Source: an uncultured Clostridia bacterium (GTDB lineage Bacteria; Bacillota; Clostridia; TANB77; CAG-508). Taken from it: DNA of 64,000 nt. Location of the stretch: contig CANPWE010000003.1 of NCBI GenBank assembly GCA_947581895.1, positions 3,005 through 67,004 of the forward strand. Reading direction: 5' to 3'. How positions within the stretch are numbered: the stretch's first letter is position 1; the number at the start of each line of letters is the position of its first letter. The notes under the pieces were generated by a model. The model was not told where the DNA came from. It made no database searches and saw only the letters and a list, made by a program, of their open reading frames with translations. Positions 11,756 to 37,061 of this stretch are shown here, piece after piece. The translations under genes were made by a program, and so were the position numbers.

Positions 11756-11784
11756 TTGAAATACTCTAAAAAAAAAGTTATAAT
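11756..11784 (+). promoter_or_regulatory. sigma-70-like promoter (TTGAAA-17 nt-TATAAT) reading into the tRNA-Arg region
   Basis: ttgaaa at 11756-11761 and tataat at 11779-11784, with a 17-nt spacer. Confidence 0.6.
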
Positions 11785-11797
11785 ACTATATAGTTCT

Positions 11798-11836
11798 GCA
11801 ACTGTAGCTTAGCTGGATAGAGCGTTCGGCTACGAA
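11798..11836 (+). pseudogene. 5' half of a disrupted tRNA-Arg-like gene (acceptor, D-arm and anticodon loop only)
   Basis: gcaactgtagcttagctggatagagcgttcggctacgaa matches the intact tRNA-Arg at 11931 through the anticodon loop, then diverges (gcgtaacttcag...). No foldable 3' half follows. Confidence 0.6.
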
Positions 11837-11930
11837 GCGTAACTTCAGTTTTGTGCAAACCTGTATATATCAAAGAACCTAGGAGATTTTATATAAAATA
11901 TTTCCCCTAAATTCCCCTTAATTTATACAT

Positions 11931-12007
11931 GCAGCAGTAGCTTAGCTGGATAGAGCACTCGGCTACGAACCGAGAGGTCGGGGATTCGAATTCCTCCTGC
12001 TGCACCA
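11931..12007 (+). tRNA. tRNA-Arg (anticodon ACG)
   Basis: Acceptor GCAGCAG/CTGCTGC, D-arm AGCTTAGCTGGATAGAGC, anticodon stem CTCGG/CCGAG with loop CTACGAA (ACG), T-loop TTCGAAT, encoded CCA. A hairpin plus T8 terminator follows at 12010-12040. Confidence 0.85.
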
Positions 12008-12009
12008 TA

Positions 12010-12040
12010 CTCTCAAGCTAATTTGAGAGTTTTTTTTATA
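12010..12040 (+). terminator. rho-independent terminator after tRNA-Arg
   Basis: ctctcaagctaatttgagag followed by tttttttt. Confidence 0.7.
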
Positions 12041-12158
12041 CATATATTATTTTCCCCTTATTTTATAATTTTTCCCCTGAAATATAAAAAATAATTCAAC
12101 TAACTTTTTATATGAGTTCTAATGTCGAACTTTTGAATCTGTCTAAACATCCAGTCAA

Positions 12159-14156
12159 TTATTCTTCTATTTCCTCTTGCATCATCATTTTATAATGATT
12201 AAGATGTCCTAACTCTTCAAATATTTTTCGGAATATTCTAAATGCATTTTGATTTAGATTAACATCAGGAGCCATATATAATCCATCCCATAATATTTCA
12301 TATGAATTTTTTATTGGATTGTTATTTTTATAATCTTCTATTTTGGAAACACCATTAATTTTTTGTACTGTTAAAAATTTGAATTTTTCTTTTGTCTTAT
12401 TTTTTCCTTCTTTTCCATAAAGAAAAGAAACTTCTTTAAAAAAATAAATATTATGACTAAATATAAAAATTTGATTTATATTTCTTTTTTCATCTATACA
12501 TAAGTCAATTAAATTTCTAATTAATGTACTAATAATAAATAATACATTACTATCCATACTTGTAACGGGATCATCAATTACTAATATATGTTCTTCTTGG
12601 AGTCCTTTTCTCGTCCTACTTCCAAATACTAAATTGTAGAAATATAAAAATGAAATGAAGCTAAATTCTCCTTCACTTAATGTCTTTGTTGCATCTTCTC
12701 CATTTGGTCTAATAATTGAATAAGTTAGATTGTCTTCATTTTCTTTTAATTTGAAATTGTTAAAATTAAATTTTTTGAGTAAATCATTTATTTGATTAAT
12801 AGTCCTCGTTATGCCACTAATAGAATTTTCTAACTTTTCTAATTCTATTGACTTATCTTTTAAATATATACTTAAATTGTTCAACTCTGTTTCTATGTTT
12901 TGTATTGCATCTGTTCGCTTTTTTAGTTCTGCATTATATTGTTTAATATCATCATTACTTATTGTTCTTATGAAAATCCATGCTTTCTTTTTTAATTCTC
13001 CTTTGCTTTCTTCAATATTTTTAATTTTCAAATTATTAGATTCTATTTTTCTATTATAGATATCCAGTATTTCGTTGATTTTTTCTAATAATATTAGATT
13101 TTTATTAATTTTGCATATATATTTAGGATTATCTATTTTCTTATTAATTTCTTTCTTTATAGAATCTACATATTCATTTATATCAATAATAAGCTGAGGG
13201 TCATTAAAAATTTTATTATTTTCTTTAAGTAATATGTTAATTTGGTTGCATATACTTTCAAAGTTTATTTTCACTGCATCAAGATCATTTTTTTGTTCCT
13301 TATATTTTTCGTCATATAACAAATTTATATTGAATAGGAAATCTTTTTGCAAATCTCTTTGACAAAATGGACATTTATTATTTGACTTTTCCAAATATCT
13401 TATTCCTTCTTCAACCCATTTGCTATTATTTAAATCTTCTATAAGCTGTGATAGTGTAATATCTTTATTTTCAATAATTGCTGTTTCTAAAATATTAGAT
13501 TCGATAATTTCCTTAAATTGATTTATATCTATTTTTTCTATTAATTCTTGTTCTTTTAACTCATTTTCGTATAAAGTTTTATATTCTTCTAATAAATCGT
13601 CGTATAAAATTTTATCATTTGTTTCTTCTATACATAAACATTTGTTAAAAAAATTTTCTTTCTTGCCCATATTTCCTCTATAAATTTCAGAAATTTTATC
13701 ACAATAATCTTTTTTATATTTGTTCCAAAATAAATCTTCAATACTTTCTTTATATTTTTTTATATCATCTTTCATTTGTTTTAATTGTTCTTTTTTTATT
13801 TTCTTAGTATCTAAAATATCTTTTCTTTCGATATTAAGCTTTTCAATCTCTTTATAAATCTCTTCAGACTCTTCACCTAATGTATAAATACCTCTTAACT
13901 TAGTTTCAGGATTAAAATTACTTTTTACAAAGTCTTGATTATATACTAATCTACTACACTCAATATTGTTATCCCATAGCAACTGTGAATCCTCATATTT
14001 ACTTGGATTTTCAATAACTCTAGTAATTGTAGTTTTACCTGCTCCATTATTTCCATAAATGAAGTTTATTTTAGATGGTTTTATTGTCGTTTCTGTATTT
14101 TTATCATATGTAGCTATATTTTTTAGTATAATATTATTTATCATTTTTTCCTCCAA
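12159..14156 (-). CDS. AAA_13/SMC-like ABC ATPase with central coiled coil and CxxC zinc hook (defense-island type)
   Basis: Walker A FIYGNNGAGKTT near the N-terminus. Long K/E-rich coiled coil containing CPFCQR. C-terminal signature/Walker B LSEGEFSFISFLYF...ILVIDDPVTSMD and H-loop FIFSHN. Confidence 0.7.
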   Translation of the reverse strand: MEEKMINNIILKNIATYDKNTETTIKPSKINFIYGNNGAGKTTITRVIENPSKYEDSQLLWDNNIECSRLVYNQDFVKSNFNPETKLRGIYTLGEESEEIYKEIEKLNIERKDILDTKKIKKEQLKQMKDDIKKYKESIEDLFWNKYKKDYCDKISEIYRGNMGKKENFFNKCLCIEETNDKILYDDLLEEYKTLYENELKEQELIEKIDINQFKEIIESNILETAIIENKDITLSQLIEDLNNSKWVEEGIRYLEKSNNKCPFCQRDLQKDFLFNINLLYDEKYKEQKNDLDAVKINFESICNQINILLKENNKIFNDPQLIIDINEYVDSIKKEINKKIDNPKYICKINKNLILLEKINEILDIYNRKIESNNLKIKNIEESKGELKKKAWIFIRTISNDDIKQYNAELKKRTDAIQNIETELNNLSIYLKDKSIELEKLENSISGITRTINQINDLLKKFNFNNFKLKENEDNLTYSIIRPNGEDATKTLSEGEFSFISFLYFYNLVFGSRTRKGLQEEHILVIDDPVTSMDSNVLFIISTLIRNLIDLCIDEKRNINQIFIFSHNIYFFKEVSFLYGKEGKNKTKEKFKFLTVQKINGVSKIEDYKNNNPIKNSYEILWDGLYMAPDVNLNQNAFRIFRKIFEELGHLNHYKMMMQEEIEE

Positions 14157-14212
14157 TTATTTGTTTATTTTATACTATTTTTGTAAATTCTTTATATTAT
14201 AACTATCATATT

Positions 14213-15031
14213 CTATGTCAATTTTTCTTTTATTATATGTATTAAATCTTCATATTTTATATTCTTTGAGTATGAATGCTTATTAGCATAATTTTTCCAA
14301 AGACCTTTTAGGAAATCACTTTCTTCTATTTCTTTCAATTTCTGTTTTGTAATATTTAAATCTGTATTTCTATTTAAAAATGTTTTTTCGATTGCTTCTT
14401 TCAAAATATTACTGCTATAGGAGTTATTTACTAAAAGATAATATAAATCATAGTAATCTTTCATTCTGCTATTTAATATTCCTTTTTCAATAACAGTTTG
14501 ATATTTTTCAGCAATTATACTTTCTATAGGATACGTCATAAGTTGTAATGTTCTATCTTCAAAAAGCATTTTATAGTTGTATTCTATTTCTTTAGGAGTA
14601 ATAACATCTCCAGTTGCTATATCAATACTTAAATTTACTTTTAATCCATCTAAAATAGCAATAAGATTGTATTTTAATCCGCCATATGTATCCTCTTCTC
14701 TTATTGGTTTAAAATTTTTTATATTGAAAGTTACATTGTCTTGTATATCAATTGATAATATTTCTGTTAATACTGTATATAATTCCTCATCTGTTAAATT
14801 AATTCCTTTTATGCATGCATCCATATCCATAGTAGTTCTAGAGTCGATTCCCATAATTGATGACAACAATAAGCCGCCTTTTAAAATAAAATTATTTTTA
14901 TATTTAGATATACTTAATCTTTCTAGAATTCTTTCGAACATATAATTTTGCAAAACTTCATTAACTGTAATATTGCTTCTATTAGCAATGTTTTTTGCCT
15001 TGTCCATTAAACTTTTAGAATTTTTTATCAT
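14213..15031 (-). CDS. abiEii: AbiEii/AbiGii-family nucleotidyltransferase toxin
   Basis: N-terminal ...ERILERLSISKYKNNFILKGGLLLSSIMGIDSRTTMDMD, typical of DUF1814/AbiEii. 4-nt overlap with the upstream AbiEi-like gene. Confidence 0.75.
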   Translation of the reverse strand: MIKNSKSLMDKAKNIANRSNITVNEVLQNYMFERILERLSISKYKNNFILKGGLLLSSIMGIDSRTTMDMDACIKGINLTDEELYTVLTEILSIDIQDNVTFNIKNFKPIREEDTYGGLKYNLIAILDGLKVNLSIDIATGDVITPKEIEYNYKMLFEDRTLQLMTYPIESIIAEKYQTVIEKGILNSRMKDYYDLYYLLVNNSYSSNILKEAIEKTFLNRNTDLNITKQKLKEIEESDFLKGLWKNYANKHSYSKNIKYEDLIHIIKEKLT

Positions 15032-15612
15032 ATTATAGCCTCCATATAATTTTTTACATTATCATATACTTTCAGCTTTTTTGCATATTGAAACATATTA
15101 TTTACATTGAAATCCTTATCTTTAATACATTTTCTTATAATTTTATTAGCTAGTTCAATCTCCATTGAGTTTCTGTTTGAAATGATGTCTACTAGAGTTT
15201 TTTCAATATTATATGAATATACTTCTTTACCTGTATTTGTTAAAATTTTTATTTTTCCTATATTTATCATTTCTTTATTAACTCTATGAATATTGGCGAT
15301 ATTTTTACAATATCCTAAACTATTATTTCTTGTAGTAGTAATATCAATTTTTTCTGGTGTTCTTTCTGTTTTATTAAGAAGATATAATGCTGTATTAAAA
15401 GAAAAAACTGTATTAGGATGTTTGATTTGAAAAATAAATAATTCATCATATATAAACTTATTTGTAGCATATATTCCATAATCTATTCTTTCAATTGCTT
15501 TATCTTTCACCATTTTAGATAGAATTGTTCTAGAAATTCCTTTTTTATTTGCATCCTTTGAAGTTATAATACTTCCATTAGCATTTATTATTTCAATATA
15601 TTTGTCATACAT
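15028..15612 (-). CDS. abiEi: AbiEi-family antitoxin/transcriptional regulator
   Basis: 194 aa, the expected size and position (upstream, overlapping) for the AbiEi partner. HTH-like N-terminus. ggggga RBS. Confidence 0.65.
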   Translation of the reverse strand: MYDKYIEIINANGSIITSKDANKKGISRTILSKMVKDKAIERIDYGIYATNKFIYDELFIFQIKHPNTVFSFNTALYLLNKTERTPEKIDITTTRNNSLGYCKNIANIHRVNKEMINIGKIKILTNTGKEVYSYNIEKTLVDIISNRNSMEIELANKIIRKCIKDKDFNVNNMFQYAKKLKVYDNVKNYMEAII

Positions 15613-15903: not shown

Positions 15904-16978
15904 TTACGATGCTTTCTTTAATGTATAAGTAACATCAAAGTTTTTATCAAAAAAATCTTTATAACTTTTAACATACTTCGTATCTATATTATAACCTAAA
16001 GGTAGTAAATCCCTTATTATACGCCTTATAATATAGTCAAGATTCTGATTAGATTGTGGTAATCTAATTACAAATATAATATTCTTAATCGGTTTTTCCT
16101 CTATTTCTTTTAGTATCATATATGAATTAGATATGTTTTGAAAAGCTATAACTGGTACATTAATTGTCTCTTTCATCAAATTAGCGACTAAAAAATTATC
16201 TGTAATATACACAGTATCTGTATTTTCATTGATACCATGTCTCATAATCCAACTTTTAGCAGGTGTTCCATTTATCTTATTATTACTTGAAAACCATAAA
16301 TCACTTGTATTGTTAAAAGGTTTACTTAGATGAACTGATAGACCTTGAATATAGCCATTTTTATCAAATACTGGTACAAAGAATCCATCATAACTATTTA
16401 AGCACCACTTAAAATCTTCCTCTTGATAAAATCCAGGTATTCCGTGCAAGATTACATTTTTTAGCCATAGCATAACCTATCAACCTTCTCTTAATATAGT
16501 TTTTAGGTGCTGTTCTATATAAACCATCTTCTATTGAGCTTTCAAGAAATCCTATACTTTCTAAATATTTTTTATGTTGTTGTTCTAACTTTAGCATTCC
16601 TAAAAATTCTCTATATACTCTATCTCTAATTTCAACATCAACAAGTTCATTTACTGGTGATATTACAAACTTTTCTCTATCCATAGAATAACATTGTCTT
16701 TCTAAAAGTTCCTTAAAAGCTGCTTTATTGTCAATATGTCTAACTTTTGCATATAAGCCAATAGAATAACCACCATTTCCACAACTTGTACAACAATATT
16801 TATTTGTACGAGAGTTTAAGCTTAGTGTTGGTATTTTACTTAATTTCTGATAGCCACAAAACGGACATATTGCTTTACTTTCATAACCTCTTTCTTCTCT
16901 TATATCTAAACATAAATGATATGCAACATTTAATATGTTTAAATGTTTTTCAGTTTCCTGATAATCTAGTTTATACAT
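15904..16978 (-). pseudogene. DNA primase (CHC2 zinc finger + Toprim-like C-terminus) interrupted by a frameshift at an A6 run (~16455-16460)
   Basis: ORF 16409..16978 carries CPFCGYQ...CCTSCGNGGYSIGLY (CHC2 primase zinc finger). ORF 15904..16473 continues in the +1 frame across ggctaaaaaatg. The two halves overlap by 65 nt. Confidence 0.6.
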
Positions 16979-17012
16979 ATTTACTTTTCTTCCTTTGTTT
17001 TTTTACTTTTAT

Positions 17013-17864
17013 CTATGCTGCAATTTCTACTTCTTGCATTTCAAAGTTATCTAATTTTTCTATAAACTCATTTGCACATTTTTGTATTTTACTACCTAAT
17101 TCTATTACTGTTTTAGGCTCTCCTTCAGCCCATTGTGCTATGTAGTTAAAACTACAACTAGATGTATCTAATCCAAAATGGTCTGCTACTATGTATGCAA
17201 CTGATTCAACAAATACTTCAGATAAATCTCTATCTTTTTTGTAATCGAAATCATCATAAAGGCTATGTGTAATTTCATGTAGTAAAGTTGCTGTTTTATC
17301 ATCTATTGACATTGATTTTTTTATTGCAATTTCATTATGCTTTTCACTATAATACCCTTTCGTTCCTCCAAACAAATCTACTTCTCTAACAGGTACTTTA
17401 CTAAAAGCTTTTAATTTTTCATAGAAGTCCCCCATTTCATCTGTTTTTAAATCATGTGTTTCAAGTGGAATTTCTTTACCTGTAGTTTGTGATACATCAT
17501 AAACATATACATATCTATATACACAATAATCAACAGAAATTTCTTTTTTTACCTCTTCACCATCTTCCATAACTTTTTGTATTTTTGTCATTTTTCTTGG
17601 TATTGGTGCAATAATTGCAATACTGTGAGCTCCTTTTTCCACAACTCGTCCCATATCAAACCATTTTTTTCTACCTGCAACTTGTGTAGCATCTGGAAAT
17701 TGAGAAAAAATTAAAACTATGTTATTAAAGCTATATTTGTTATGTAGCTTCTTTTGGAATTTTAAAAACTTCTCATATTCTCCTCTTTCAACTATTTCTT
17801 GTAAGTTTTTCACAACTCTTTCATATACTTCCTTTGTTTTATTTACTCTTGAATTACTTTCCAT
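17013..17864 (-). CDS. ardC: ArdC-like antirestriction protein (ssDNA-binding N-domain + HExxH metalloprotease-like C-domain)
   Basis: N-terminal ...NNIVLIFSQFPDATQVAGRKKWFDMGRVVEKGAHSIAIIAP (ArdC_N/DUF1738 pattern). C-terminal LLHEITHSLYDD. Confidence 0.7.
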   Translation of the reverse strand: MESNSRVNKTKEVYERVVKNLQEIVERGEYEKFLKFQKKLHNKYSFNNIVLIFSQFPDATQVAGRKKWFDMGRVVEKGAHSIAIIAPIPRKMTKIQKVMEDGEEVKKEISVDYCVYRYVYVYDVSQTTGKEIPLETHDLKTDEMGDFYEKLKAFSKVPVREVDLFGGTKGYYSEKHNEIAIKKSMSIDDKTATLLHEITHSLYDDFDYKKDRDLSEVFVESVAYIVADHFGLDTSSCSFNYIAQWAEGEPKTVIELGSKIQKCANEFIEKLDNFEMQEVEIAA

Positions 17865-17867
17865 AAT

Positions 17868-19337
17868 TTACGCAGCTCCTTTCAATACTTTTTGTTCCCA
17901 ATTCGTTAAAAACTTTAATTGTTCCTCATTCGGATCTCGATTACATTTTATTCTGCTTTGAACTACTCTATTGTTCTTTACCTCTACTGTTACCAACGAT
18001 TTTTTAGGTTTATCAATAGTTCTCATAAAATATATATCACACTTACCTTTTGCATACCTTTCAGCATAAGTTCTTACACAATTATTTTGTTGTTTGCTTT
18101 CATTTTGCAAAGCTTTTAAAGAACATGCAGGCATAATAACAAACATTTTGTCCTGATACTTATAATTAGATAACTCTTTGCCTCTTTTCTTAATACCATC
18201 TTGTATAATTTTCTCACTTTGTATCTCATATTGAGCTTCTAATTTATCATGTTCCTCTCGTAAGTTTTTAGGAAATGCATATCTATTATTTTTTAAATCC
18301 AAACCAAGAGCTTTTGCAAATCCTAAATAATCTCTATACATATATTTATCTACTCTTCCATGATGCATTTTGGCATATTTATAAAAACGATTTAATCCAA
18401 TATATCCTGCAATTTCTTCTAAAATACCAGTATCTTCACCATATCCAACAAACTTTTGTAAATATTTTATTTTAGACATATTTTTTTCTTGTAAAAGTCT
18501 TAATATCTTTAGTTGTACGTATGTTATATTATGATTTTTCATAAAAGGATAAAAATCTTTTGAAACTCCAAATATATCTTTGAAAGAACCTTTATTTCTG
18601 AATTCCTTTTCTCTTAATGCCAAGTTGTATAACTTCATTTTAGCAAGAAGTTCAATTCGATTAATTTGATAATCTGATTTATTACCTATTAAATCAGACA
18701 AATCTATATATGAGCAATGTTTTGTTATATCCCATAAACATGAATATTTATATTGTGTATTCTTTAATACTTGTTTTAAATTATTTGGAAACACAATTGA
18801 GTAATCAATTAAAGAATAATTTCTCATATATTGCCTCCATTTCTTATCATTAATATACCAACCATTTCCATGATAAATATAAATATGACGTTGAGTTCTT
18901 GAAACTCTACCATTTACATACACATTTTGATAATAGCTGTTTCTTGTTGGAATTTCTCTACCAAATTCTGCTACTGAATAACTATGTTTATGTGTTGGAC
19001 CAATAGTAGATTTTAATTCAAAATATCTAATAACAAATGTATCATTTATATAATCTAAAATTGATAAATAATCCTTAAATTCATACCATCTTAAATTACT
19101 TCTTTTTACTAAATACTTATTATGGCAATTCGGACATTTTGCTTCTTCTCCTACTTTTTTCTTGCTAATAAAATCGTGATTACAGTTAGTACAATGACAT
19201 TTATTCTTACTTGATCTAATTATTAAATTTTGATATTCTGCTTGTTTTTCCACAAATTTATCCCAGCCCTTTGGCATACTATCATTTGAATCTAGTTCTT
19301 CAAATATTTTTCTATAAGCTACTCTTACATATCCCAT
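17868..19337 (-). CDS. PcfJ-like protein (conjugative-element associated)
   Basis: The C-terminal block QNNCVRTYAERYAKGKCDIYFMR...LVTVEV matches the PcfJ domain. N-terminal Cys pairs CHCTNCNH...CPNC. Confidence 0.65.
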   Translation of the reverse strand: MGYVRVAYRKIFEELDSNDSMPKGWDKFVEKQAEYQNLIIRSSKNKCHCTNCNHDFISKKKVGEEAKCPNCHNKYLVKRSNLRWYEFKDYLSILDYINDTFVIRYFELKSTIGPTHKHSYSVAEFGREIPTRNSYYQNVYVNGRVSRTQRHIYIYHGNGWYINDKKWRQYMRNYSLIDYSIVFPNNLKQVLKNTQYKYSCLWDITKHCSYIDLSDLIGNKSDYQINRIELLAKMKLYNLALREKEFRNKGSFKDIFGVSKDFYPFMKNHNITYVQLKILRLLQEKNMSKIKYLQKFVGYGEDTGILEEIAGYIGLNRFYKYAKMHHGRVDKYMYRDYLGFAKALGLDLKNNRYAFPKNLREEHDKLEAQYEIQSEKIIQDGIKKRGKELSNYKYQDKMFVIMPACSLKALQNESKQQNNCVRTYAERYAKGKCDIYFMRTIDKPKKSLVTVEVKNNRVVQSRIKCNRDPNEEQLKFLTNWEQKVLKGAA

Positions 19338-29554: not shown

Positions 29555-29667
29555 AAATGTTACAGAACTACACTTCTGTTACTTTTTATAGAGATTTCAT
29601 TCATAATATGGCAAAAAAATGTTACAGAAATGATAAAAATAGATATAATTAAATGTTACAGAAATGA
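29555..29667 (+). repeat. three direct copies of aaatgttacagaa upstream of the recombinase gene
   Basis: Copies at 29555, 29617 and 29651. The first lies within an imperfect palindrome, atgttacagaactacacttctgttac. Confidence 0.5.
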
Positions 29668-29681
29668 AAGGGGTGTTTTTA

Positions 29682-31105: not shown

Positions 31106-31867
31106 CTAACCAAATGCAATAGGTGTAAATATTGTGAATATTATAATTGTAAATTGTCTTACTATGAATTTTATATTTATCTTAAAGAATAAATAAACAA
31201 ACATAGCCAATATAATAGCTGTTGATACTGCATTACCAGTCTTTATACTTTTAAGCATACTATCTCCAATAAGCCCATTTAAACTTCCACCTGAAGCAGT
31301 AACTAATAGATGTACCATTGCATTATTCATATATATCAAAAATCTAATAAACAATGGTGCTAAAGCAATAAATGCTCCTCCAAAGCATAGCCTCATTAAG
31401 CTTTCTTTTGCTTCATTTTTTCTTGCAGTATTCATTCCTGCCATTGTTATTTTGTATGAAAGAATTACTACAGCAATTAAAATTAAACTACTTGATAATA
31501 CTGCAAATATTCTGTACCAATTCATTGTTTTGTTCCACAGTCCTACATCAAACGGGGCGAGAGTATCAAAATTTCCATTTAATCTCCCCATAACGTCAAG
31601 CATTTTTCTGTTAAATATTAATTCGTCATATTGTTTAAATCCTACATCTAATTCATCAGATGTAACAACATTCATAACTGTTTGAGCAATTCCTGCAATA
31701 CATTCTGCTATTATCTTTTCAAATAAAGAACCATCTTCTTCTTCAACTTGCTTTTTCATATCTAGCTTGTCATCTTTTTTATCTGCAGCATAGCAAAAAC
31801 TAGGCGATAATAAAAAAAGAATAGTAACTATTATTACTAAACTTTTAAGAATCTTTTTCAATTTCAT
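31106..31867 (-). CDS. polytopic membrane protein, possibly VirB6/TrbL-like (conjugation channel) fragment
   Basis: Signal-peptide-like N-terminus and at least 4 predicted TM segments. Sits in a T4SS-remnant context. aggaggtaatg RBS. Confidence 0.4.
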   Translation of the reverse strand: MKLKKILKSLVIIVTILFLLSPSFCYAADKKDDKLDMKKQVEEEDGSLFEKIIAECIAGIAQTVMNVVTSDELDVGFKQYDELIFNRKMLDVMGRLNGNFDTLAPFDVGLWNKTMNWYRIFAVLSSSLILIAVVILSYKITMAGMNTARKNEAKESLMRLCFGGAFIALAPLFIRFLIYMNNAMVHLLVTASGGSLNGLIGDSMLKSIKTGNAVSTAIILAMFVYLFFKINIKFIVRQFTIIIFTIFTPIAFG

Positions 31868-31927
31868 TACCTCCTTTCACTTAAAAACTCGCGTTGAACT
31901 TTTTTATTCAACACGAGTTTAATTTTA

Positions 31928-32191
31928 TTATTTATCTCTATAATGTGAACCACATTGAGCAATTATAATCTGGTTATTCTCTATCTTGTAGACAATTCTG
32001 TTTTTATCATCAATTCTTCTACTCCAATAGCCAGCTAAATTTCCTGACAAAGGCTCTGGTTTTCCTAATCCTTCATAGCCATTTCTATCTATATCTTTTA
32101 GTAATAAGTTGATTTTTTTAAGAGTTTTCTTATCTTGTGTCTGCCAGTATAAGTAATCCTCCCAAGCATCATCTTGCCAAGCCTTATTCAT
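31928..32191 (-). CDS. yoeB: YoeB/Txe-family toxin
   Basis: MNKAWQDDAWEDYLYWQTQDKKTLKKINLLLKDIDRNGYEGLGKPEPLSGNLAGYWSRRIDDKNRIVYKIEN...CGSHYRDK is collinear with E. coli YoeB. Confidence 0.8.
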   Translation of the reverse strand: MNKAWQDDAWEDYLYWQTQDKKTLKKINLLLKDIDRNGYEGLGKPEPLSGNLAGYWSRRIDDKNRIVYKIENNQIIIAQCGSHYRDK

Positions 32192-32447
32192 CTTCCACCT
32201 CTATTATGTCATGAACTGTAATTTTTCCCTCCTCAATATCTTTTACAGCTTTCTCTAATCTTTCCATATTGGCAGCACTATAAAAAGGATCTGCTGTTAT
32301 TTCAAAAGGGATTCTTTGTTCTTTTACTGCCTTTTTTACAAAAATATTAAATGCTGTTGTCATTGTCATTCCTGTATCTGAGCAGAATTTTTCAAATTGT
32401 TTTTTCAATTCTTCGTCTATTCTAATACTAATATTGGTTTGTGCCAT
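32184..32447 (-). CDS. RelB/DinJ-family (RHH) antitoxin
   Basis: MAQTNISIRIDEELKKQFEKFCSDTGMTMTTAFNIFVKKAVKEQRIPFEI, the DinJ-like ribbon-helix-helix pattern. 8-nt overlap with the toxin gene. Confidence 0.7.
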   Translation of the reverse strand: MAQTNISIRIDEELKKQFEKFCSDTGMTMTTAFNIFVKKAVKEQRIPFEITADPFYSAANMERLEKAVKDIEEGKITVHDIIEVEDE

Positions 32448-32768
32448 TTTCCTTCACTCCTCTCTTTCTACTATTATATGAATTATATCATTTTATTTAT
32501 ACATTGTCAAGATATTTAATGACATTGTAATAACGTTATTATATGTCATTTTATATAATAATATACTTTTAAAGAATGATTGTTCACACTATATTCTAAG
32601 TGAATACAAACTGTTTTTCATATTCTGTTATTATAAATTTAATCGCTGTAACACTATTATTTAAACTTATTACACACTCTCCTGGATTTGCAGTTGTTAA
32701 GAAATTTTTAGTTCCTTCAGATAAATTAAAGAAATTTACTACTTCATCAACATTGCCGTGGTGCTTGT

Positions 32769-34421
32769 TTAAATAAATATCTTGTTGAGCATATGTTTAT
32801 AATAGTTTTTCCGTTCTTCGCTATTTAAAAATTCATCAATAAATTGACTACCTATAAATAGTGGAACATTATATTTTCTTCCACGTCTTGCAACATTTAC
32901 TAGAAAGTCTGCTGATTCTTGATATTTCAAGAAAAGCCAACCTTCATCACATATTATGATTTTTTTCTTATTTTTGTTTTTTAACACAAACTTTTGCCAT
33001 ACCCATGTTAGTATTACAAAAGATGCATATAATTTTGTAAATTCATCTTTTATCTCACTCATATCAAAACAAACTATTTCCGCATCAGAGCGAATTTTAC
33101 TTTCACAATCAAATATACCAAGTGAATTTCCTTTTAGATATGTTGCTAAAATATTAGATAATTCCACACATTTTCCTCTTTCAACTAACTTTCTATGAAA
33201 GTCTGAAAGTGTTGGCATCTTTTTAGCGATTCTACCTATTGCATATTTCCCATTTCCAAGTTTTCCACCTTTTCTTTCGTATAAGGAATTTACATCACTT
33301 GTAATTCCTTTATCTGCGTAAAGTTGGTCAACAATTATTTCTATTTCAGAAGTTTCAGTTCCGTTTAGTTTTCTACTTTGTGAGTTTCTACATATAGTCG
33401 CTATCAATGAACGAATTTCTGATACTTTATCTTTGATATTTAAAAATTGTTTTCCTTCTTTTTCTTCAGGTTCTATTTCAAATGGATTTATTCCAGTGCT
33501 TTCTCCTTGTACTATTTTGATGACCTCTCCACCTAACATTTTTGTTAAATTAGAATATTCACCTTCAACATCTATAAAGAAAGCTCCACAACCTGTGGTT
33601 GCTATGTTTCTAGCTGCTAATGTTTTTAATGCTACACTTTTTCCTCCTCCCGAAGTTCCACAAATAAATACATGTGGATTTGGTAGTGATGGAGGTCCTA
33701 TAAAAGTATCAACATATACTGGAGCATTTGTAAACATATTTCTTCCAATAAAAATCCCTCTATCATGCGATAAATTAGGATTTGAAATTGGAATTAATGT
33801 TCCAATTCCTCCAGCTACCATATTTCTTTCATAATTTGGAATTGGTATATCTCCAATTGGTAACATTGTTTTTAATCCCTCTAACTGTCTAAAAGTTAGA
33901 GTTCTAATCATTGCTGTTTTCTTATTAAGTTCACTTTCTAATATTTTTGTTTTTTCATTTAATTCTTGCAAGCTTTCAGCATTTAATGTAATAAAAATGC
34001 TTGCAAAGAATAGTTTATCTTGATTAGTTTGAATTAACATTCTTAATTCTTCCAAGTCTGTAATTTGCTTTTCTAACTCTGGAAGATGTAATATATTTCC
34101 TTGTCTTGAATAAGTTGCATATTCCGACTGACTTTGTACTAATCTTTTTGTTAATTGATTAATAACATTTCCATTACTTGATGGAACGACTTTTACTGAA
34201 ATACTAATATTTCCAATATTAAATAAATCATCAAGCCAACTAACCCAAGTTTGTTCTGGATATATAATCATTGCAAATATCCTTGAAAACTTGTTATAAC
34301 CTAACACTAAATAATCCTTTTTCTCTTGTAGCTCGTCTGGTAAAAGTAAATTTTCTAAGCCTGGAATATTATTAAAAATGTCAATTTCTTCTTGCTTTTC
34401 TTTTTTGCTTTTTCCCAACAT
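32769..34421 (-). CDS. VirB4/TraC-like conjugative ATPase, ATPase module (separate ORF from its N-domain)
   Basis: Walker A FICGTSGGGKSVALKTL, Walker B IICDEGWLFL, ...LFIGSQ. Own GAAGGAGG RBS 8 nt before the ATG, inside the 3' end of the upstream ORF. The protein ends shortly after the SQ motif, so it may be C-terminally truncated. Confidence 0.7.
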   Translation of the reverse strand: MLGKSKKEKQEEIDIFNNIPGLENLLLPDELQEKKDYLVLGYNKFSRIFAMIIYPEQTWVSWLDDLFNIGNISISVKVVPSSNGNVINQLTKRLVQSQSEYATYSRQGNILHLPELEKQITDLEELRMLIQTNQDKLFFASIFITLNAESLQELNEKTKILESELNKKTAMIRTLTFRQLEGLKTMLPIGDIPIPNYERNMVAGGIGTLIPISNPNLSHDRGIFIGRNMFTNAPVYVDTFIGPPSLPNPHVFICGTSGGGKSVALKTLAARNIATTGCGAFFIDVEGEYSNLTKMLGGEVIKIVQGESTGINPFEIEPEEKEGKQFLNIKDKVSEIRSLIATICRNSQSRKLNGTETSEIEIIVDQLYADKGITSDVNSLYERKGGKLGNGKYAIGRIAKKMPTLSDFHRKLVERGKCVELSNILATYLKGNSLGIFDCESKIRSDAEIVCFDMSEIKDEFTKLYASFVILTWVWQKFVLKNKNKKKIIICDEGWLFLKYQESADFLVNVARRGRKYNVPLFIGSQFIDEFLNSEERKNYYKHMLNKIFI

Positions 34422-34920
34422 ACAGGTTCTTTCCTCCTTCCTTAAGTAAGCTAATATTTAACGCCGAATTTTTATTGAGTTCTCTATAAATCAAGTTGTA
34501 AAGATCATCTTCATTAAGCACATCACACACGATTTTAGCTCTCAATAAATTACCTTTGAAAGAGGTAGCTTTTCTATTTAGTTCATCAATGGCCTTTTCA
34601 TAAGTTCCATCGTAACTTATAATCGCATAGTTTTTCACAACAGATATTGACCTGTTTTCCATTAAATTTTCCAAATATTCAACCAAATACTTTTGATATT
34701 CATGTATCTGTTGACTTTTTGTCTTATTTTCTTTAATTAAATTTATAATTTTACTTGTATCTATAAATTCTGTTGTTGAAAAGAATTGCACTGGATAATC
34801 TATTGCTAAAGCTGTTTGAATTAAAACACTCTCTATTGCATCTTGTTCACTATTTGAAAGCATATTGTAATCAATATTTCCAAGCTTTACAATATTTGAA
34901 TACCTGTTACCTATACACAA
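34381..34920 (-). CDS. VirB4 N-terminal domain protein (separate ORF)
   Basis: 179 aa, overlaps the ATPase ORF by 41 nt in another frame. In Gram-positive VirB4 proteins (e.g. Tn916 Orf16) this region is normally the first ~200 aa of the same polypeptide. Confidence 0.55.
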   Translation of the reverse strand: MCIGNRYSNIVKLGNIDYNMLSNSEQDAIESVLIQTALAIDYPVQFFSTTEFIDTSKIINLIKENKTKSQQIHEYQKYLVEYLENLMENRSISVVKNYAIISYDGTYEKAIDELNRKATSFKGNLLRAKIVCDVLNEDDLYNLIYRELNKNSALNISLLKEGGKNLYVGKKQKRKARRN

Positions 34921-35188
34921 AGTTCTTTTTTCTGAATAGAAATTTTATTGCATAAAAAAAGAACTTGTCGAAGTTCTGTTCACCGATTTTAAAAAAGCTA
35001 CATAGTAGAAAAAAAGTTGCTAATAACACAACTAAAACTATTTTTACTATTATGGATATTTTTATTGCAAATATTGCTAAACATGCAGCAGTTATCATTA
35101 AGTAAATTACTTGCCTTAAACTTAAATATCCTCCAAAAATCTTCTCCTCTCGTTTAATATCATATGGTACTTTATACACTTTCATATG
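34907..35188 (-). CDS. PrgI/VirB3-like small membrane protein
   Basis: MKVYKVPYDIKREEKIFGGYLSLRQVIYLMITAACLAIF... is the typical PrgI-family N-terminus, immediately upstream of VirB4. Start taken at the internal Met. The longer ORF-track form overlaps the upstream gene. Confidence 0.55.
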   Translation of the reverse strand, partial: HMKVYKVPYDIKREEKIFGGYLSLRQVIYLMITAACLAIFAIKISIIVKIVLVVLLATFFLLCSFFKIGEQNFDKFFFYAIKFLFRKKNFVYR

Positions 35189-35199
35189 GCAAGCACCTC

Positions 35200-35601
35200 C
35201 TATGTTCCTGTTCCGCCGCCACTTGTTAGCAAAGCACCAGAGTTGTTTGTTGCTACATTTATTATGATTCCAGCTATAATTAATGATGCACCTAAAATTA
35301 CACCACCACCACAAATCCATGCTAAACTTCCAATACTTTCAGACCTTTTTTGTGGATTGTTTGAATTAGCAATCATTTTTAATGCAGCTACAACAATACT
35401 TGCGAAGATTAGAACTCCACCCAATGGCATTGCAATACTTGTAATTACTCTTTTAATGTTGTCTGTTGCTGTTTGCACTTCCTCTGTTCCTATTGTTTCA
35501 GCAAAGCATTGATTCCCTTGTATTGCTAAAAGTGTTAGTGTTGTTCCAATTGTAGATAATTTTTTCATTATCTTCTTTTGTTTTTTAGTTACTTTCTCCA
35601 T
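35200..35601 (-). CDS. secreted/membrane protein, possibly VirB2-like pilin
   Basis: Signal peptide (LSTIGTTLTLLAIQGNQCFA) followed by two hydrophobic helices. 133 aa. Positioned upstream of the PrgI-like gene. Confidence 0.4.
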   Translation of the reverse strand: MEKVTKKQKKIMKKLSTIGTTLTLLAIQGNQCFAETIGTEEVQTATDNIKRVITSIAMPLGGVLIFASIVVAALKMIANSNNPQKRSESIGSLAWICGGGVILGASLIIAGIIINVATNNSGALLTSGGGTGT

Positions 35602-35662
35602 AACTTTTCACTCCTTTACGATTATTTTTGAAGGGCTATCGTAATAGAAGCACTATAAATTT

Positions 35663-35914
35663 TTACATCAGGTTTCTAAAATGCACTACAAAAATTGGAA
35701 TTGATAAGAATAATAAACTTATCAAAATCAAACTTGGTACTGCTATTAAAAACTTTGATTTTATCTTCTGTGATTTTATCAAGCATCCTATTGCTAGCAT
35801 AATTAAAGATAATATAGTTAATATCGTGAGAACTATTACTATAACTTTAAAGCTAACAAAGAAGATGTTAGATACTGTTGTTTCAAAATTGTTTATGTAG
35901 TTATCATAAAGCAT
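35663..35914 (-). CDS. small membrane protein
   Basis: 83 aa with two TM helices. Confidence 0.4.
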   Translation of the reverse strand: MLYDNYINNFETTVSNIFFVSFKVIVIVLTILTILSLIMLAIGCLIKSQKIKSKFLIAVPSLILISLLFLSIPIFVVHFRNLM

Positions 35915-35929
35915 TTATATCAGCTCCTT

Positions 35930-36643
35930 TTAGGTACTGTTATTGGTGTATTTATTTATAATTGACCTTTTATAATAATTTAATAAATCATTTGGTTGAT
36001 GTTCTTTCGCTATGGCATATAAATTTATTAAATCCTCTCGTTTTATTGCAGACATAAGATAAGTAAACTCACTTTCATAAATTAAATACAAAGTAAATAT
36101 TATATTTTTTAGCACATTTATTCTTTCAGTTTTCCACATGTTTAGTATTTCCTGTGGATAAATGAGCTCTAATCGTTCCAATATTTCATAAAACTCTTTT
36201 GAAATTTCATCGCCTTTATTATTTATAATATAAAATAAGTCATCTATATTATATTTTATATTATTCTCTTTGACTTTTTCGTCAATACCCTCTTGATCTT
36301 TTTGACAATAGGGGTATTGATTTTTTTGACAATAGGGTATGTCTAAAATATAAATATCTCTTTCAACAATTTCCTTATTCTCATTTTTTATAATTTCAAT
36401 TTTTATATATCCTTGTTTTTGTAAATTTGAAAGCCATCTACTTATCGTTTCATTACTTACATTATACAATTCTGCAAAATATTTATTTTTAGCATAACAA
36501 AAACCATATTTATTAGCCAAAGCTGTTACTTCTCCATAAAGTAACTTTTCAGATGATTTTAATTTTTTATCATACCTAACCGTAGCCGGTATAACCGCAT
36601 AATAACTAATCTGATTTTCTTCATTCATCTTGACCTCCTTCAT
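35930..36643 (-). CDS. HTH replication-organizer/initiator-like protein
   Basis: N-terminal ...YYAVIPATVRYDKKLKSSEKLLYGEVTALANKYGFCYAKNKYFAELYNVSNETISRWLSNLQKQGYIKIE (winged-HTH of phage/plasmid replisome organizers). Contains an 18-bp tandem DNA repeat encoding YPYCQK twice. Confidence 0.5.
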   Translation of the reverse strand: MKEVKMNEENQISYYAVIPATVRYDKKLKSSEKLLYGEVTALANKYGFCYAKNKYFAELYNVSNETISRWLSNLQKQGYIKIEIIKNENKEIVERDIYILDIPYCQKNQYPYCQKDQEGIDEKVKENNIKYNIDDLFYIINNKGDEISKEFYEILERLELIYPQEILNMWKTERINVLKNIIFTLYLIYESEFTYLMSAIKREDLINLYAIAKEHQPNDLLNYYKRSIINKYTNNST

Positions 36644-37014
36644 TATTTATGTGTTCATCTGCTTGCTTTCCTGTTAAAATACAAGCATACAAAAAGAGGC
36701 TTAAATTAGCCCCTAAAAATAATCCTAAAATAAATAAAAACATATACCTGACCCTCCGATTCTTTTAACTTTTTTACAAATTTTTAAAAAGCACGAGAAT
36801 ATCAACGATTTCTCATGCCCCCAGAGTGCAATTTTTCATGCCCCCAAATTCCCCCAAAAAGTAGTTTTATAATAAATCTTTTTAATTTTTTTTAAACCAT
36901 AATAAACTATTTTAAACATTTCTAATTTTCCAAAAACCTTTACATTTCAAGTATTATAAGCTATAATCATTAATATTAGTTGGATGCATGTAGTTTGAGT
37001 TTTTTTAATTTTTT

Positions 37015-37061
37015 CTCACTACGAACCAGAATGTCGGGGGTTCGAATCCTCCGTTGCACCA
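37015..37061 (+). pseudogene. 3' fragment of a tRNA-Arg-like gene (anticodon loop to CCA), candidate attR
   Basis: ctcactacgaaccagaatgtcgggggttcgaatcctccgttgcacca. Contains the anticodon-loop, T-arm and acceptor-CCA segments, but no 5' half precedes it. Confidence 0.6.

What the first reader, a model, noticed from the sequence alone, without database searches (positions are those of the whole stretch)
11756..37061. A tRNA-Arg gene appears split by a ~25-kb composite element that carries its own intact replacement tRNA-Arg
A promoter (TTGAAA-17-TATAAT) is followed at 11798-11836 by the first 39 nt of a tRNA-Arg, through the anticodon loop ctacgaa, which then breaks off. About 90 bp further lies a complete tRNA-Arg(ACG) with a different acceptor stem and a strong terminator. 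At 37015-37061 there is an isolated tRNA 3' part (anticodon loop to CCA) whose acceptor strand (ccgttgc) is complementary to the 5' half at 11798 (gcaactg, 6 of 7) but not to the intact gene (gcagcag). The breakpoint in both fragments is the anticodon loop. Everything in between is accessory: a defense ATPase, AbiE, a leading-region array, integrase, toxin-antitoxin and T4SS remnants. The reading is that an element integrated into the anticodon-loop region of tRNA-Arg without regenerating it, and complements the loss with its own tRNA-Arg just inside the left junction.
Basis: inference. Interest (0 to 1): 0.6.

Follow-up and report, generated by a model that had tools for sequence, protein, structure and literature searches.

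The report
Conjugative-element relic splits and replaces tRNA-Arg
A 25-kb relic of a conjugative element sits inside the anticodon loop of the host's tRNA-Arg(ACG) gene, leaves it in two dead halves, and supplies its own complete tRNA-Arg; this trick was described in 2024 for some phages and here proves common in non-phage elements of gut Clostridia.

Summary
The native tRNA-Arg(ACG) is cut at its 7-nt anticodon loop. CTACGAA is the only sequence shared by the two junctions (11830-11836 and 37019-37025). Four related species have the empty site: an intact tRNA where the window's two flanks meet with a 7-bp overlap. The 25,182-bp insert carries a complete, different tRNA-Arg(ACG) 94 bp inside the left junction.

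The same layout (broken 5' half, spacer with paired TTCCCC sites, element tRNA, tyrosine integrase) occurs in 28 of 30 informative metagenome loci and in 7 of 30 species genomes. The host halves carry at least 11 different acceptor strands. Two loci show stacked 5' halves from serial integration, and one locus shows the free attP.

The window copy is a relic. Its cognate integrase is gone, with defence genes in its place. The tRNA's own promoter is deleted, and the orphan 3' half has decayed. The XerC-like gene at 29664 is a backbone gene, not the att integrase.

The mechanism matches "tRNA-dependent lysogeny" (Hatfull lab, 2024), but in a conjugative, non-phage element. I rate it a new variant of a known kind.

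The parts
11585..11660 (-). Host tRNA-Pro(TGG), divergent neighbour of the tRNA-Arg gene. It is a context marker that is conserved at the empty sites.
   Evidence: ARAGORN; Rfam 66.4 bits. The same tRNA-Pro/tRNA-Arg pair occurs in L004, L019, L026, L028 and L030.
11756..11784 (+). Native tRNA-Arg promoter (TTGAAA-17-TATAAT). It is now the only promoter-like site upstream of the element's tRNA.
   Evidence: 11/12 match; no site in the 94-bp spacer. Aligns with the promoters of intact genes in relatives.
11798..11836 (+). Orphan 5' half of the native tRNA-Arg(ACG): acceptor strand, D arm, 5' anticodon stem and anticodon loop. This is the host side of attL.
   Evidence: 39/39 identical to the native gene of 20 related species. 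Not called as a tRNA.
11830..11836 (+). Left copy of the 7-bp core CTACGAA (the anticodon loop): the crossover region.
   Evidence: It is the only sequence shared by the two junctions. The flanks overlap by exactly these 7 bp at the empty site L028.
11837..11930 (+). Element P' arm spacer with two TTCCCC sites 10 bp apart (11902-11907 and 11912-11917). These are inferred arm-type integrase sites. The tRNA's own promoter has been lost by a 46-bp deletion.
   Evidence: The motif is conserved at the same place in L001, L016, L025, L027, L041 and L043 and in L076 and L105-L108, which keep TTGAAA-17-TATAAT where the window has a 46-column gap.
11931..12007 (+). Element-borne complete tRNA-Arg(ACG), the replacement gene.
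   Evidence: ARAGORN; Rfam 66.0 bits. It is 77/77 identical in L065, L076 and L105-L108 next to an integrase. It folds as a cloverleaf within the predicted precursor.
12009..12030 (+). Intrinsic terminator of the element tRNA.
   Evidence: conserved in L076 and L105-L108.
12052..12077 (+). Two further TTCCCC sites (12052-12057 and 12072-12077). Homology to intact relatives ends just after them, where the relatives have the 3' end of the integrase gene.
   Evidence: Alignment; repeat D6.
12159..15612 (-). Defence cargo in the position where relatives carry int/xis: an AAA_13 ATPase (PADLOC PDC-S06) at 12159-14156, AbiEii at 14213-15031 and AbiEi at 15028-15612. GC content is lower here (0.20-0.23).
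   Evidence: In L072 the same neighbours (189 aa, primase, ArdC) are separated from the tRNA by about 8 kb that includes int.
15904..25738 (-). Backbone block of the element family: a 189-aa protein, primase Zn-ribbon protein, ArdC-like, PcfJ, PcfK, SSB, DUF3846, an SMC/SbcC-like ATPase, a Gp3-like protein and a 120-aa protein.
   Evidence: Pfam. Colinear with L041/L058 and with L072, L070 and L104.
26496..28925 (-). 809-aa protein of unknown family, absent from the relatives examined.
   Evidence: No hit in Pfam above threshold, NCBIfam, PHROGs or PADLOC. No tblastn hit in any locus.
29664..30554 (+). XerC/XerD-like tyrosine recombinase (296 aa). It is a backbone gene, not the att-site integrase.
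   Evidence: Pfam and NCBIfam. Homologues of 52-59% identity lie inside L104 and L105, which also have the tRNA-adjacent integrase. No detectable similarity to that integrase family.
31106..36643 (-). Truncated type IV secretion end of the element: TrbL/pilin, a YoeB/RelB toxin-antitoxin pair, a VirB4-like ATPase in two ORFs, PrgI, pilin, an 83-aa protein and the HTH_36 terminal gene.
   Evidence: Pfam. Colinear with the HTH_36 ends of L046-L055 and L115. The genes that follow TrbL in relatives (M23 peptidase, sortase, adhesin) are missing.
36808..36860 (+). P-arm C-rich repeats (ATGCCCCCA twice, then TTCCCCCAAA). These are inferred arm-type integrase sites.
   Evidence: Repeats D4 and D5. About 90% identical to the P arm of L115 over the central ~110 bp. 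A similar motif occurs in L053.
36939..36967 (+). Outward-facing promoter-like site in the P arm (TTTACA-17-TATAAT), 51 bp before the core.
   Evidence: 11/12 match. Counterparts at the same place in L053, L055 and L115.
37019..37061 (+). Right core copy (37019-37025) followed by the orphan, decayed 3' half of the native tRNA-Arg. This is the host side of attR.
   Evidence: 2 substitutions and 2 one-base deletions relative to the native 3' half. The same junction occurs in an independent sample, L045.
37069..37093 (+). Terminator of the native tRNA-Arg gene, now stranded with the 3' half.

Best explanation
The 25,182 bp between 11837 and 37018 are a decayed member of a family of integrative conjugative or mobilizable elements of low-GC gut Clostridia.

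The family's tyrosine integrase recombines a short attP core with the anticodon loop of the host tRNA-Arg(ACG) gene. [quoted passage not shown] The 5' half stays with the promoter at attL. The 3' half stays with the terminator at attR.

The element compensates with a complete tRNA-Arg(ACG) gene in its P' arm. That gene lies about 100-200 bp from the core and in the same orientation as the host gene. It therefore lands directly behind the host promoter.

In the window the cognate integrase, and presumably the excisionase, has been lost, and an AAA_13/AbiE defence cluster now occupies its position. The tRNA's own promoter is deleted, so it is most likely transcribed from the native promoter through the orphan 5' half and processed by RNase P. 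The type IV secretion module is truncated. The orphan 3' half has accumulated 4 mutations. The element can therefore no longer excise to restore the gene. If this is the only tRNA-Arg(ACG), the host now depends on the foreign copy.

Shown here: the split, the empty site, the element origin of the tRNA, the recurrence of the layout, and the loss of the integrase. Inferred: the catalysis itself, the arm-site role of the TTCCCC motifs, read-through expression, and host dependence.
For: Split and empty site. The window's flanks are contiguous in L028, L019, L026 and L004, with a 7-bp overlap inside an intact tRNA.

Identity of the halves. The 5' half is 39/39 identical to the native gene, and the 3' half is the native sequence with 4 changes. 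Neither junction is called as a tRNA.

The tRNA belongs to the element. The same 77/77 tRNA, spacer motif, terminator and downstream TTCCCC sites occur in L076 and L105-L108, next to an integrase and behind different host 5' halves.

Recurrence.
- 7 of 30 species genomes with this native tRNA are broken at the same loop. All 6 with enough sequence have a second, complete tRNA-Arg 148-341 bp from the start of the 5' half, followed by a tyrosine integrase.
- 28 of 30 metagenome loci with at least 250 bp beyond the integrase-adjacent tRNA have a broken 5' half, with at least 11 different host acceptor strands.
- The same element junction appears in different hosts (L097/98/99 and L105-108).

Crossover in the loop. 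In L025 a second element broke the first element's tRNA, and the sequence after CTACGAA (CCGGA) comes from the incoming attP. L110 shows attP itself, reading TCGG|CTACGAA|CCGA between a P arm with the HTH_36 end and the P' arm, tRNA and integrase.

The window's right end is a genuine P arm. It is 71% identical overall, and about 90% over the central part, to the P arm of L115.

Loss of the integrase. tblastn with the family integrases finds nothing in 11837-37018, and homology to relatives stops where their int begins.

Own promoter deleted. The predicted precursor still folds the tRNA as a cloverleaf.

Precedent for the mechanism: tRNA-dependent lysogeny, with experimental proof in mycobacteriophages (PMC10865867).
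Against: No integrase of the family is present in the window, so the link to that enzyme rests on synteny in relatives. No biochemistry exists for any member.

The reconstructed attP core of the window (TCTCA|CTACGAA|GCGTA) has no stem-like inverted repeat, unlike L110. This could be decay or a subfamily difference.

Whether the genome has another tRNA-Arg(ACG) is unknown, because only 64 kb are visible.

Expression of the element tRNA from the host promoter is predicted, not measured.

All sequences are metagenome assemblies.
Confidence: 0.9

Rival explanations
1. Classical tRNA-targeted island. The intact tRNA at 11931 would be the regenerated host gene (host 5' part joined to element 3' part), the fragment at 37019 its displaced 3' end, and the 5' fragment at 11798 an unrelated relic of a tandem duplication.
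For: Most islands in tRNA genes work this way (Islander abstract, PMC4383910). At least one relative may do so: L078 has a host-like 5' half fused to an element-type 3' half, with two G-U pairs in the acceptor stem.
Against: The intact tRNA is not contiguous with host sequence. It is preceded by 94 bp of element spacer, and it is identical (77/77) in elements sitting in hosts with different tRNAs. At empty sites the host gene has the GCAACTG 5' half, and the flanks meet in its anticodon loop, not at 11931.
Confidence: 0.02
2. The insert was placed by the XerC/XerD-like recombinase at 29664-30554, which needs only a short core and no arm sites.
For: It is the only tyrosine recombinase inside the insert. 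The shared core is only 7 bp.
Against: Its homologues lie 5-7 kb from the att end inside relatives that also carry the tRNA-adjacent integrase and an HTH_17 excisionase-like gene. The window keeps the family's TTCCCC sites on both arms. In relatives the integrase, the tRNA and the core always travel together.
Confidence: 0.05
3. Assembly artefact. A metagenome assembler joined unrelated contigs through the shared tRNA-like sequence.
For: The window and all relatives are metagenome assemblies, and repeated tRNA sequence can cause chimeras.
Against: The two halves share only 7 bp with each other. The attL layout recurs in more than 35 independent assemblies. The attR junction recurs in an independent sample, L045. 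The flanks are syntenic with empty sites on both sides.
Confidence: 0.02
4. A functional split tRNA gene. The two halves would be transcribed separately (an outward promoter precedes the 3' half) and joined or paired in trans, as in some archaea.
For: Each half has a promoter-like site upstream. The 5' half is perfectly conserved.
Against: The sequences flanking the halves are no more complementary than shuffled controls (-10.2 versus a mean of -12.1 kcal/mol). The 3' half has lost two bases in the T-stem/acceptor region, and the joined sequence gives a defective acceptor stem. A complete tRNA of the same anticodon sits alongside.
Confidence: 0.01

Closest known systems
tRNA-dependent lysogeny of actinobacteriophages (Fionnbharth, LeBron, Gaia and others; Guerrero-Bustamante & Hatfull, mBio 2024, PMC10865867). 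The same paper cites prophage Lj965 of Lactobacillus johnsonii. Two Sinorhizobium meliloti prophages are reported in PMC11476347.
   Same: [quoted passage not shown] No tRNA is rebuilt at either junction. The element carries a complete tRNA of the same anticodon. Closely related integrases include both tRNA-rebuilding and tRNA-carrying members; here the possible rebuilding members are L078 and L115.
   Different: - The carrier here is a conjugative or mobilizable element (type IV secretion, PcfJ/K, ArdC and SSB genes; no phage structural genes; nothing of the family in IMG/VR), so there is no lysogeny decision.
- The target is tRNA-Arg(ACG), in Clostridia.
- The tRNA lies within about 100-200 bp of the core and points the same way as the host gene, so it inherits the host promoter.
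- Serial integrations stack 5' halves (L025, L061).
- The window copy has lost its integrase and is fixed in place.
Classical genomic islands, ICEs and prophages that integrate in the anticodon loop of tRNA genes and regenerate the gene (as summarised in the Islander database paper, PMC4383910, and in Williams 2002, which is cited there and in PMC11476347).
   Same: The crossover lies in the 7-nt anticodon loop, with the anticodon stem supplying the symmetric flanks. The integrase gene lies next to the att site. Arm-type repeats occur on both sides.
   Different: attP here carries only 0-5 nt of the 3' stem instead of the whole 3' half, so the host gene is not restored. A separate whole gene is supplied instead.
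Tn916/ICESt3-like conjugative elements of Firmicutes.
   Same: In relatives (L041): a regulatory module of a sigma-like protein plus HTH_16, an HTH_17 Xis-like gene and int at one end, and type IV secretion genes at the other end. There is also an outward-facing promoter at an element end.
   Different: Target choice, the tRNA replacement module, and many backbone genes of unknown family.

Membership tests
tRNA-dependent lysogeny/integration (PMC10865867) | The attachment site overlaps a host tRNA gene. | tested here: met
   The insert lies within the anticodon loop of the native tRNA-Arg(ACG). Empty sites with the intact gene occur in L028, L019, L026 and L004.
tRNA-dependent lysogeny/integration (PMC10865867) | The common core is short, so no functional tRNA is rebuilt at attL or attR. 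| tested here: met
   The two junctions share 7 bp. ARAGORN and Rfam find no tRNA at either junction. attP L110 shares 14 bp with attB.
tRNA-dependent lysogeny/integration (PMC10865867) | The element encodes a complete tRNA of the same isotype and anticodon. | tested here: met
   tRNA-Arg(ACG) at 11931-12007 is of element origin: it is 77/77 identical in L076 and L105-L108, which sit in other hosts.
tRNA-dependent lysogeny/integration (PMC10865867) | An element-encoded tyrosine integrase carries out the recombination. | tested here: not met
   No family integrase lies in 11837-37018. It is present directly beside the tRNA in all relatives that have sequence there. Catalysis itself cannot be tested here.
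tRNA-dependent lysogeny/integration (PMC10865867) | The carrier is a temperate phage (lysogeny). | tested here: not met
   The genes are type IV secretion, PcfJ/K, ArdC and SSB. PHROGs gives no structural or lysis hits for the ORFs tested. Two IMG/VR scans found no member.
tRNA-dependent lysogeny/integration (PMC10865867) | The disrupted host tRNA is essential or single-copy, so the element tRNA is required. | not testable with these tools
   Only 64 kb of the genome is visible. Indirect support: one match per genome in the GTDB scan, and 62 CGU/CGC/CGA codons in 35 window ORFs.
Classical anticodon-loop tRNA islands | The crossover lies in the anticodon loop, flanked by the anticodon stem. | tested here: met
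Classical anticodon-loop tRNA islands | attP carries the 3' part of the tRNA, so the gene is regenerated at one junction. | tested here: not met
   After CTACGAA the attL sequence is unrelated to any tRNA.
Self-transmissible ICE | A complete type IV secretion system, a relaxase and a coupling protein. | tested here: not met
   Only TrbL/pilin, VirB4 (in two ORFs), PrgI and pilin remain. No relaxase or coupling-protein family was detected inside the insert. The genes that follow TrbL in relatives are absent.
Self-transmissible ICE | An integrase/excisionase module. | tested here: not met
   Relatives have HTH_17 plus int.
Archaeal-type split tRNA genes | Complementary flanks that let the two half transcripts pair. 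| tested here: not met
   Duplex energy is -10.2 kcal/mol against a shuffle mean of -12.1. The 3' half is decayed.

The most novel reading that the evidence does not exclude
A widespread family of conjugative and mobilizable elements in gut Clostridia overwrites an essential host tRNA gene rather than restoring it. Because the element brings a whole tRNA, it can enter hosts whose tRNA-Arg acceptor stems differ; at least 11 variants are seen. Successive elements then target the previous element's tRNA, producing a tRNA 'relay' of stacked 5' halves. Once the orphan 3' half decays, the host is locked to a foreign tRNA even after the element itself has died, as in this window. That would make the tRNA an addiction module and a route for horizontal replacement of a core translation gene.
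Probability: 0.55. Interest if true: 0.72.

Novelty: new variant of a known kind. Interest (0 to 1): 0.6.

Why it matters
The finding extends tRNA-dependent integration from a handful of phage groups to conjugative and mobilizable elements. It shows the strategy is common in uncultured gut Clostridia: about 40 independent loci were found here.

The data suggest why the strategy pays. A classical element must carry a 3' half that pairs with the host's 5' half. An element with a whole tRNA needs only the conserved anticodon stem-loop. The same element is indeed found in hosts with different acceptor stems.

A sister clade that targets tRNA-Lys(CTT) keeps a decaying 3'-half vestige in attP next to a complete tRNA. 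This looks like the evolutionary intermediate that the 2024 paper left open.

There are practical consequences:
- Island-finding tools that look for a regenerated tRNA plus a displaced 3' fragment will misplace the boundaries of these elements.
- tRNA gene phylogenies in these bacteria may reflect element history rather than host history.
- A dead element can remain indispensable to its host.

Tried and rejected
- Exact look-ups of three window proteins found no contig.
- A plasmid search with the junction region returned only generic tRNA-Arg matches.
- IMG/VR searches, one with the integrase and one with a core-plus-TTCCCC pattern, gave no member and only chance hits. I take this as weak support that the family is not viral.
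- A strict metagenome pattern (TTCCCC sites followed by the window-type tRNA) found nothing, because relatives have 46 extra bases there.
- HTH_36 homologues closest to the window's (L056, L057), and the abundant P0214 element (L046-L052), are inserted at other sites, so they gave no further tRNA-Arg attR junctions.
- I first read the gene order as a window-specific inversion of the block from primase to XerC relative to L041 and L104. I dropped this when L072, which has an intact integrase, showed the same orientation as the window. Both configurations exist among relatives.
- The split-tRNA (trans-pairing) idea was rejected.
- The idea that the XerC-like gene is the att integrase was rejected.
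Full report
**1. The observation**

ARAGORN finds two tRNA genes in the window: tRNA-Pro(TGG) at 11585-11660 (-) and tRNA-Arg(ACG) at 11931-12007 (+). A strong promoter-like site, TTGAAA-17-TATAAT (11/12), lies at 11756-11784. Bases 11798-11836 read as the first 39 nt of a tRNA-Arg, up to and including the anticodon loop CTACGAA, and then break off. The complete tRNA starts 94 bp later and is followed by a terminator at 12009-12030. At 37019-37061 there is an anticodon loop, T arm and CCA end with no 5' part. The native-looking terminator follows at 37069-37093. The two junctions share only CTACGAA. Joining the halves gives a tRNA-like sequence with a defective acceptor/T-stem region.

**2. 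Are the two halves one gene?**

A scan of one genome per species for the first 26 nt of the 5' half gave 30 loci. All are low-GC uncultured Clostridia. In 20 of them the gene is intact and identical:

GCAACTGTAGCTTAGCTGGATAGAGCGTTCGGCTACGAACCGGAAGGTCGGGGGTTCGAATCCCTCCAGTTGCACCA

The window's 5' half matches it 39/39. The 3' fragment is the same sequence with two substitutions and two single-base deletions.

The flanks settle the question. The window sequence left of 11836 and right of 37019 is contiguous in L028, L019, L026 and L004. In L028 the left flank ends at 2485 and the right flank starts at 2479, which is an overlap of the 7 bp CTACGAA inside the intact tRNA. So a single insert of 25,182 bp split the gene in its anticodon loop.

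The same attR junction is present in an independent sample, L045.

**3. Is the intact tRNA host or element?**

It is element. Its 77 nt are identical in L065, L076 and L105-L108. There it sits between a spacer with the same TTTCCCCTGAAATTCCCCTTAA motif and the same terminator, and is followed by two more TTCCCC sites and a tyrosine integrase gene. In L076 and L105-L108 it lies behind broken 5' halves of different host tRNAs; L065 has too little upstream sequence to show one.

In those relatives the spacer holds a promoter, TTGAAA-17-TATAAT. The window has a 46-bp deletion exactly there, and no promoter-like site remains in the spacer.

Homology to the relatives ends just after the second downstream TTCCCC site (about 12083), where their integrase gene begins. 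The window has an AAA_13 ATPase and AbiE instead. tblastn with the family integrases finds nothing inside the insert.

**4. A recurrent system**

Species genomes:
- Seven of the 30 are broken at the same loop (L001, L002, L014, L016, L018, L025, L027).
- All six with enough sequence have a second, complete and different tRNA-Arg(ACG) 148-341 bp from the start of the 5' half. A tyrosine integrase follows on the opposite strand.

Metagenome loci:
- The integrase family has 243 homologues at E<=1e-10. It has a PF00589 catalytic domain, a PF14659 core-binding domain and an unassigned N-terminal region of 120-150 residues.
- A scan with an alignment of these integrases gave 79 loci.
- Almost every locus whose integrase is at least 41% identical, and which has sequence beyond it, carries a tRNA-Arg(ACG) about 30-120 bp past the integrase match; L077 and L115 do not.
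- Of the 30 loci with at least 250 bp further on, 28 have a broken tRNA-Arg 5' half ending in CTACGAA, whose loop lies 116-216 bp upstream of the element tRNA.
- The host halves have at least 11 different acceptor strands.
- The same element junction occurs behind different host halves (L097/98/99 and L105-108).

The two exceptions are informative:
- L110 is the attP itself. The P arm, joined to the HTH_36 end of the element, reads TCGG|CTACGAA|CCGA and continues into the P' arm, tRNA and integrase. It shares 14 bp with attB.
- L078 looks like a classical relative. A host-like 5' half is fused to an element-type 3' half, with two G-U pairs in the acceptor stem.

**5. Where the strands cross, and serial integration**

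The bases after CTACGAA at attL agree with the native 3' stem for only 0-5 nt.

In L025 the tRNA of one element has itself been split by a second element. The sequence after the loop there is CCGGA, which is not that tRNA's own sequence (GTTCG), so these bases come from the incoming attP.

L025 and L061 thus carry two stacked 5' halves in front of the last, intact tRNA.

L115 shows a P arm joined through CTACGAA to an intact 3' half, a terminator and an integrase. It is either a tandem junction or the attP of a classical relative. Its P arm is 71% identical overall to window 36700-37018, and about 90% identical over the central 110 bp, including the ATGCCCCCAAATTCCCCCAAAAAG repeats. This shows that the window's right end is a genuine terminus of the family.

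**6. What kind of element is it?**

The insert encodes the following:
- an AAA_13 ATPase and AbiEii/AbiEi;
- a primase Zn-ribbon protein, ArdC-like, PcfJ, PcfK, SSB, DUF3846, an SMC/SbcC-like ATPase and a Gp3-like protein;
- an 809-aa unknown protein;
- a XerC/XerD-like recombinase;
- TrbL/pilin, a YoeB/RelB pair, VirB4 in two ORFs, PrgI, pilin and a terminal HTH_36 gene.

Evidence bearing on phage versus conjugative element:
- PHROGs gave no structural or lysis hits for the ten ORFs tested.
- Window 19494-25773 is colinear with L041/L058.
- Window 15916-17357 is colinear with L072.
- Window 31106-36643 is colinear with the HTH_36 ends of L046-L055 and L115.
- In relatives the tRNA end carries HTH_17 (Xis-like) plus int and a sigma/HTH_16 module.

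The XerC-like gene has homologues of 52-59% identity inside L104 and L105, which also have the tRNA-adjacent integrase. It is therefore a backbone gene.

The block from Gp3 to XerC is oriented one way relative to the tRNA in L041, L058, L070, L104 and L105. The ArdC-primase-189-aa end of the backbone is oriented the other way in L072 and in the window. So I do not count orientation as decay.

What the window lacks:
- int and xis;
- the regulatory module;
- the secretion genes beyond TrbL (M23 peptidase, sortase, adhesin);
- any detected relaxase or coupling protein.

It is a relic.

The same backbone uses other targets elsewhere: another tRNA in L053, tRNA-Lys(CTT) in L055 and a peptidase gene in L046-L052. 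The integration module is therefore exchangeable.

**7. How it most likely works**

Shown:
- the host gene is cut in the loop;
- nothing is rebuilt at either junction;
- a complete gene with the same anticodon lies just inside attL in the same orientation;
- an integrase lies beside it in relatives;
- attP exists.

Inferred from the established mechanism of heterobivalent tyrosine integrases and from the experiments in PMC10865867:
- The integrase binds the anticodon-stem arms as core sites and exchanges strands across the 7-bp loop.
- The TTCCCC and CCCCCA repeats are arm-type sites. Their spacing is 10-11 bp, two lie before the tRNA, two lie after it, and several lie in the P arm.
- The element tRNA complements the loss of the host gene.

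In the window the tRNA can be transcribed only from the native promoter. The predicted 245-nt precursor folds the tRNA as a cloverleaf, with the orphan half folded apart.

The 5' half is unchanged (0 changes in 39 nt) while the 3' half has 4 changes in 36 nt. At the 3' half's rate, no change in 39 nt has a probability of about 0.01. This is a crude estimate. It hints that the transcribed leader is still under constraint.

An outward promoter-like site in the P arm (36939-36967, 11/12) has counterparts in L053, L055 and L115. In the circular form it would read across attP into the tRNA. Its role is unknown.

**8. Comparison with what is known**

The mechanism is that of tRNA-dependent lysogeny (PMC10865867). 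That work describes a short core (8-17 bp), no reconstruction of the tRNA, and a phage tRNA that is required for viable integrants. It cites Lj965 of L. johnsonii as a likely case. Two S. meliloti prophages are reported in PMC11476347. Full-text searches found only phage examples.

This case differs in four ways:
- the carrier is conjugative or mobilizable;
- the target and the host phylum are different;
- the tRNA is placed behind the host promoter;
- 5' halves are stacked by serial integration.

The window copy fails the 'element-encoded integrase' and 'temperate phage' features (see the membership table). I therefore file it as working like tRNA-dependent integration, and as a new variant rather than a member of the phage phenomenon.

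**9. A sister clade**

Integrases about 35% identical (L080-L092, L100) sit beside tRNA-Lys(CTT). There the attL junction keeps a degenerate 3'-half vestige that came from attP. It has lost CCA and carries stem mismatches, and in L091 the T arm is gone. A complete tRNA-Lys lies about 120 bp further on. This looks like an intermediate between the classical and the tRNA-carrying strategies.

**10. Verdict**

The finding is real and was correctly read, apart from the integrase assignment. It belongs to a known mechanism in a new kind of carrier. The window holds a dead copy whose tRNA probably still serves the host.

Confidence in the core statement is 0.9. Interest is 0.6.

Noticed in passing
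window 1104-11660: A second island sits on the other side of the divergent tRNA pair. A 48-nt direct repeat (85% identity), 11549-11596 versus 1104-1151, covers the last 12 nt of tRNA-Pro plus 36 nt downstream. Between the repeats lie a 457-aa tyrosine integrase (1385-2758, -), a MobV relaxase (8928-10148, -) and a RepA_N-like gene (10355-11302, -). It looks like a classical mobilizable island of about 10.4 kb at the 3' end of tRNA-Pro. L043 also has Rep and relaxase genes beside its tRNA-Pro.
   Followed up: partly
Related loci only: L018, L027, L068-L070, L072, L073, L097-L099, L103-L108 (for example L105 8421-8520): In 16 of about 55 loci the tRNA-adjacent integrase is split by one extra C. 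The extra base creates an in-frame CGG codon just after the box I motif G(A/M)RPEE. It occurs at two different positions and in at least three lineages (GAA GAA CGG..., TGC CGG TTT TAA, TGT CGG TTT...). Skipping one base restores a C-terminal part of 200-215 aa with no further stops in every case. An N-terminal fragment cluster (P0116) is seen on 427 contigs. CGG is almost unused in the window (2 of 14,085 codons). This looks like programmed +1 frameshifting at a hungry Arg codon rather than gene decay. I found no report of it.
   Followed up: partly
window 12159-14156 (-): The AAA_13 ATPase next to the replacement tRNA matches the candidate defence family PDC-S06 (E=4e-180). Its C-terminal part (residues 454-650) resembles the anticodon nuclease PrrC (E=1e-8). 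A possible tRNA-cleaving defence gene beside a spare tRNA is a curious pairing. The 2024 paper speculates on such a link.
   Followed up: no
L080-L092, L100 (for example L083 11560-12080): The sister integrase clade at tRNA-Lys(CTT) has an upstream copy that is a host 5' half joined to a degenerate, attP-derived 3' half. A complete element tRNA-Lys lies about 120 bp downstream. This is a possible evolutionary intermediate.
   Followed up: partly
window 36939-36967 (+); also L053, L055 and L115: A conserved outward-facing promoter-like site lies in the element's P arm, about 50-70 bp before the core. After circularisation it would read across attP into the element tRNA. Its function is unknown.
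   Followed up: partly
window 15904-30554, compared with L041, L058, L070, L104, L105 and L072: The backbone is found in both orientations relative to the tRNA/integrase end among relatives with intact integrases: the Gp3...XerC end in L041, L058, L070, L104 and L105, and the ArdC-primase-189-aa end in L072 and the window. A XerC-like recombinase sits at one end of the block. It may be an invertible segment.
   Followed up: partly
L046-L052, L053, L055: The same HTH_36/type IV secretion backbone is inserted at other targets: inside a Peptidase_S11 gene (a widespread element; protein P0214 is listed in 143 blocks of the contig collection), in the anticodon loop of another tRNA (loop CTTGTAA) and in tRNA-Lys(CTT). 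The integration modules are therefore exchangeable.
   Followed up: partly
window 41000-50000: A stretch of very low GC content (0.17-0.22) lies downstream of the finding. I did not examine it.
   Followed up: no
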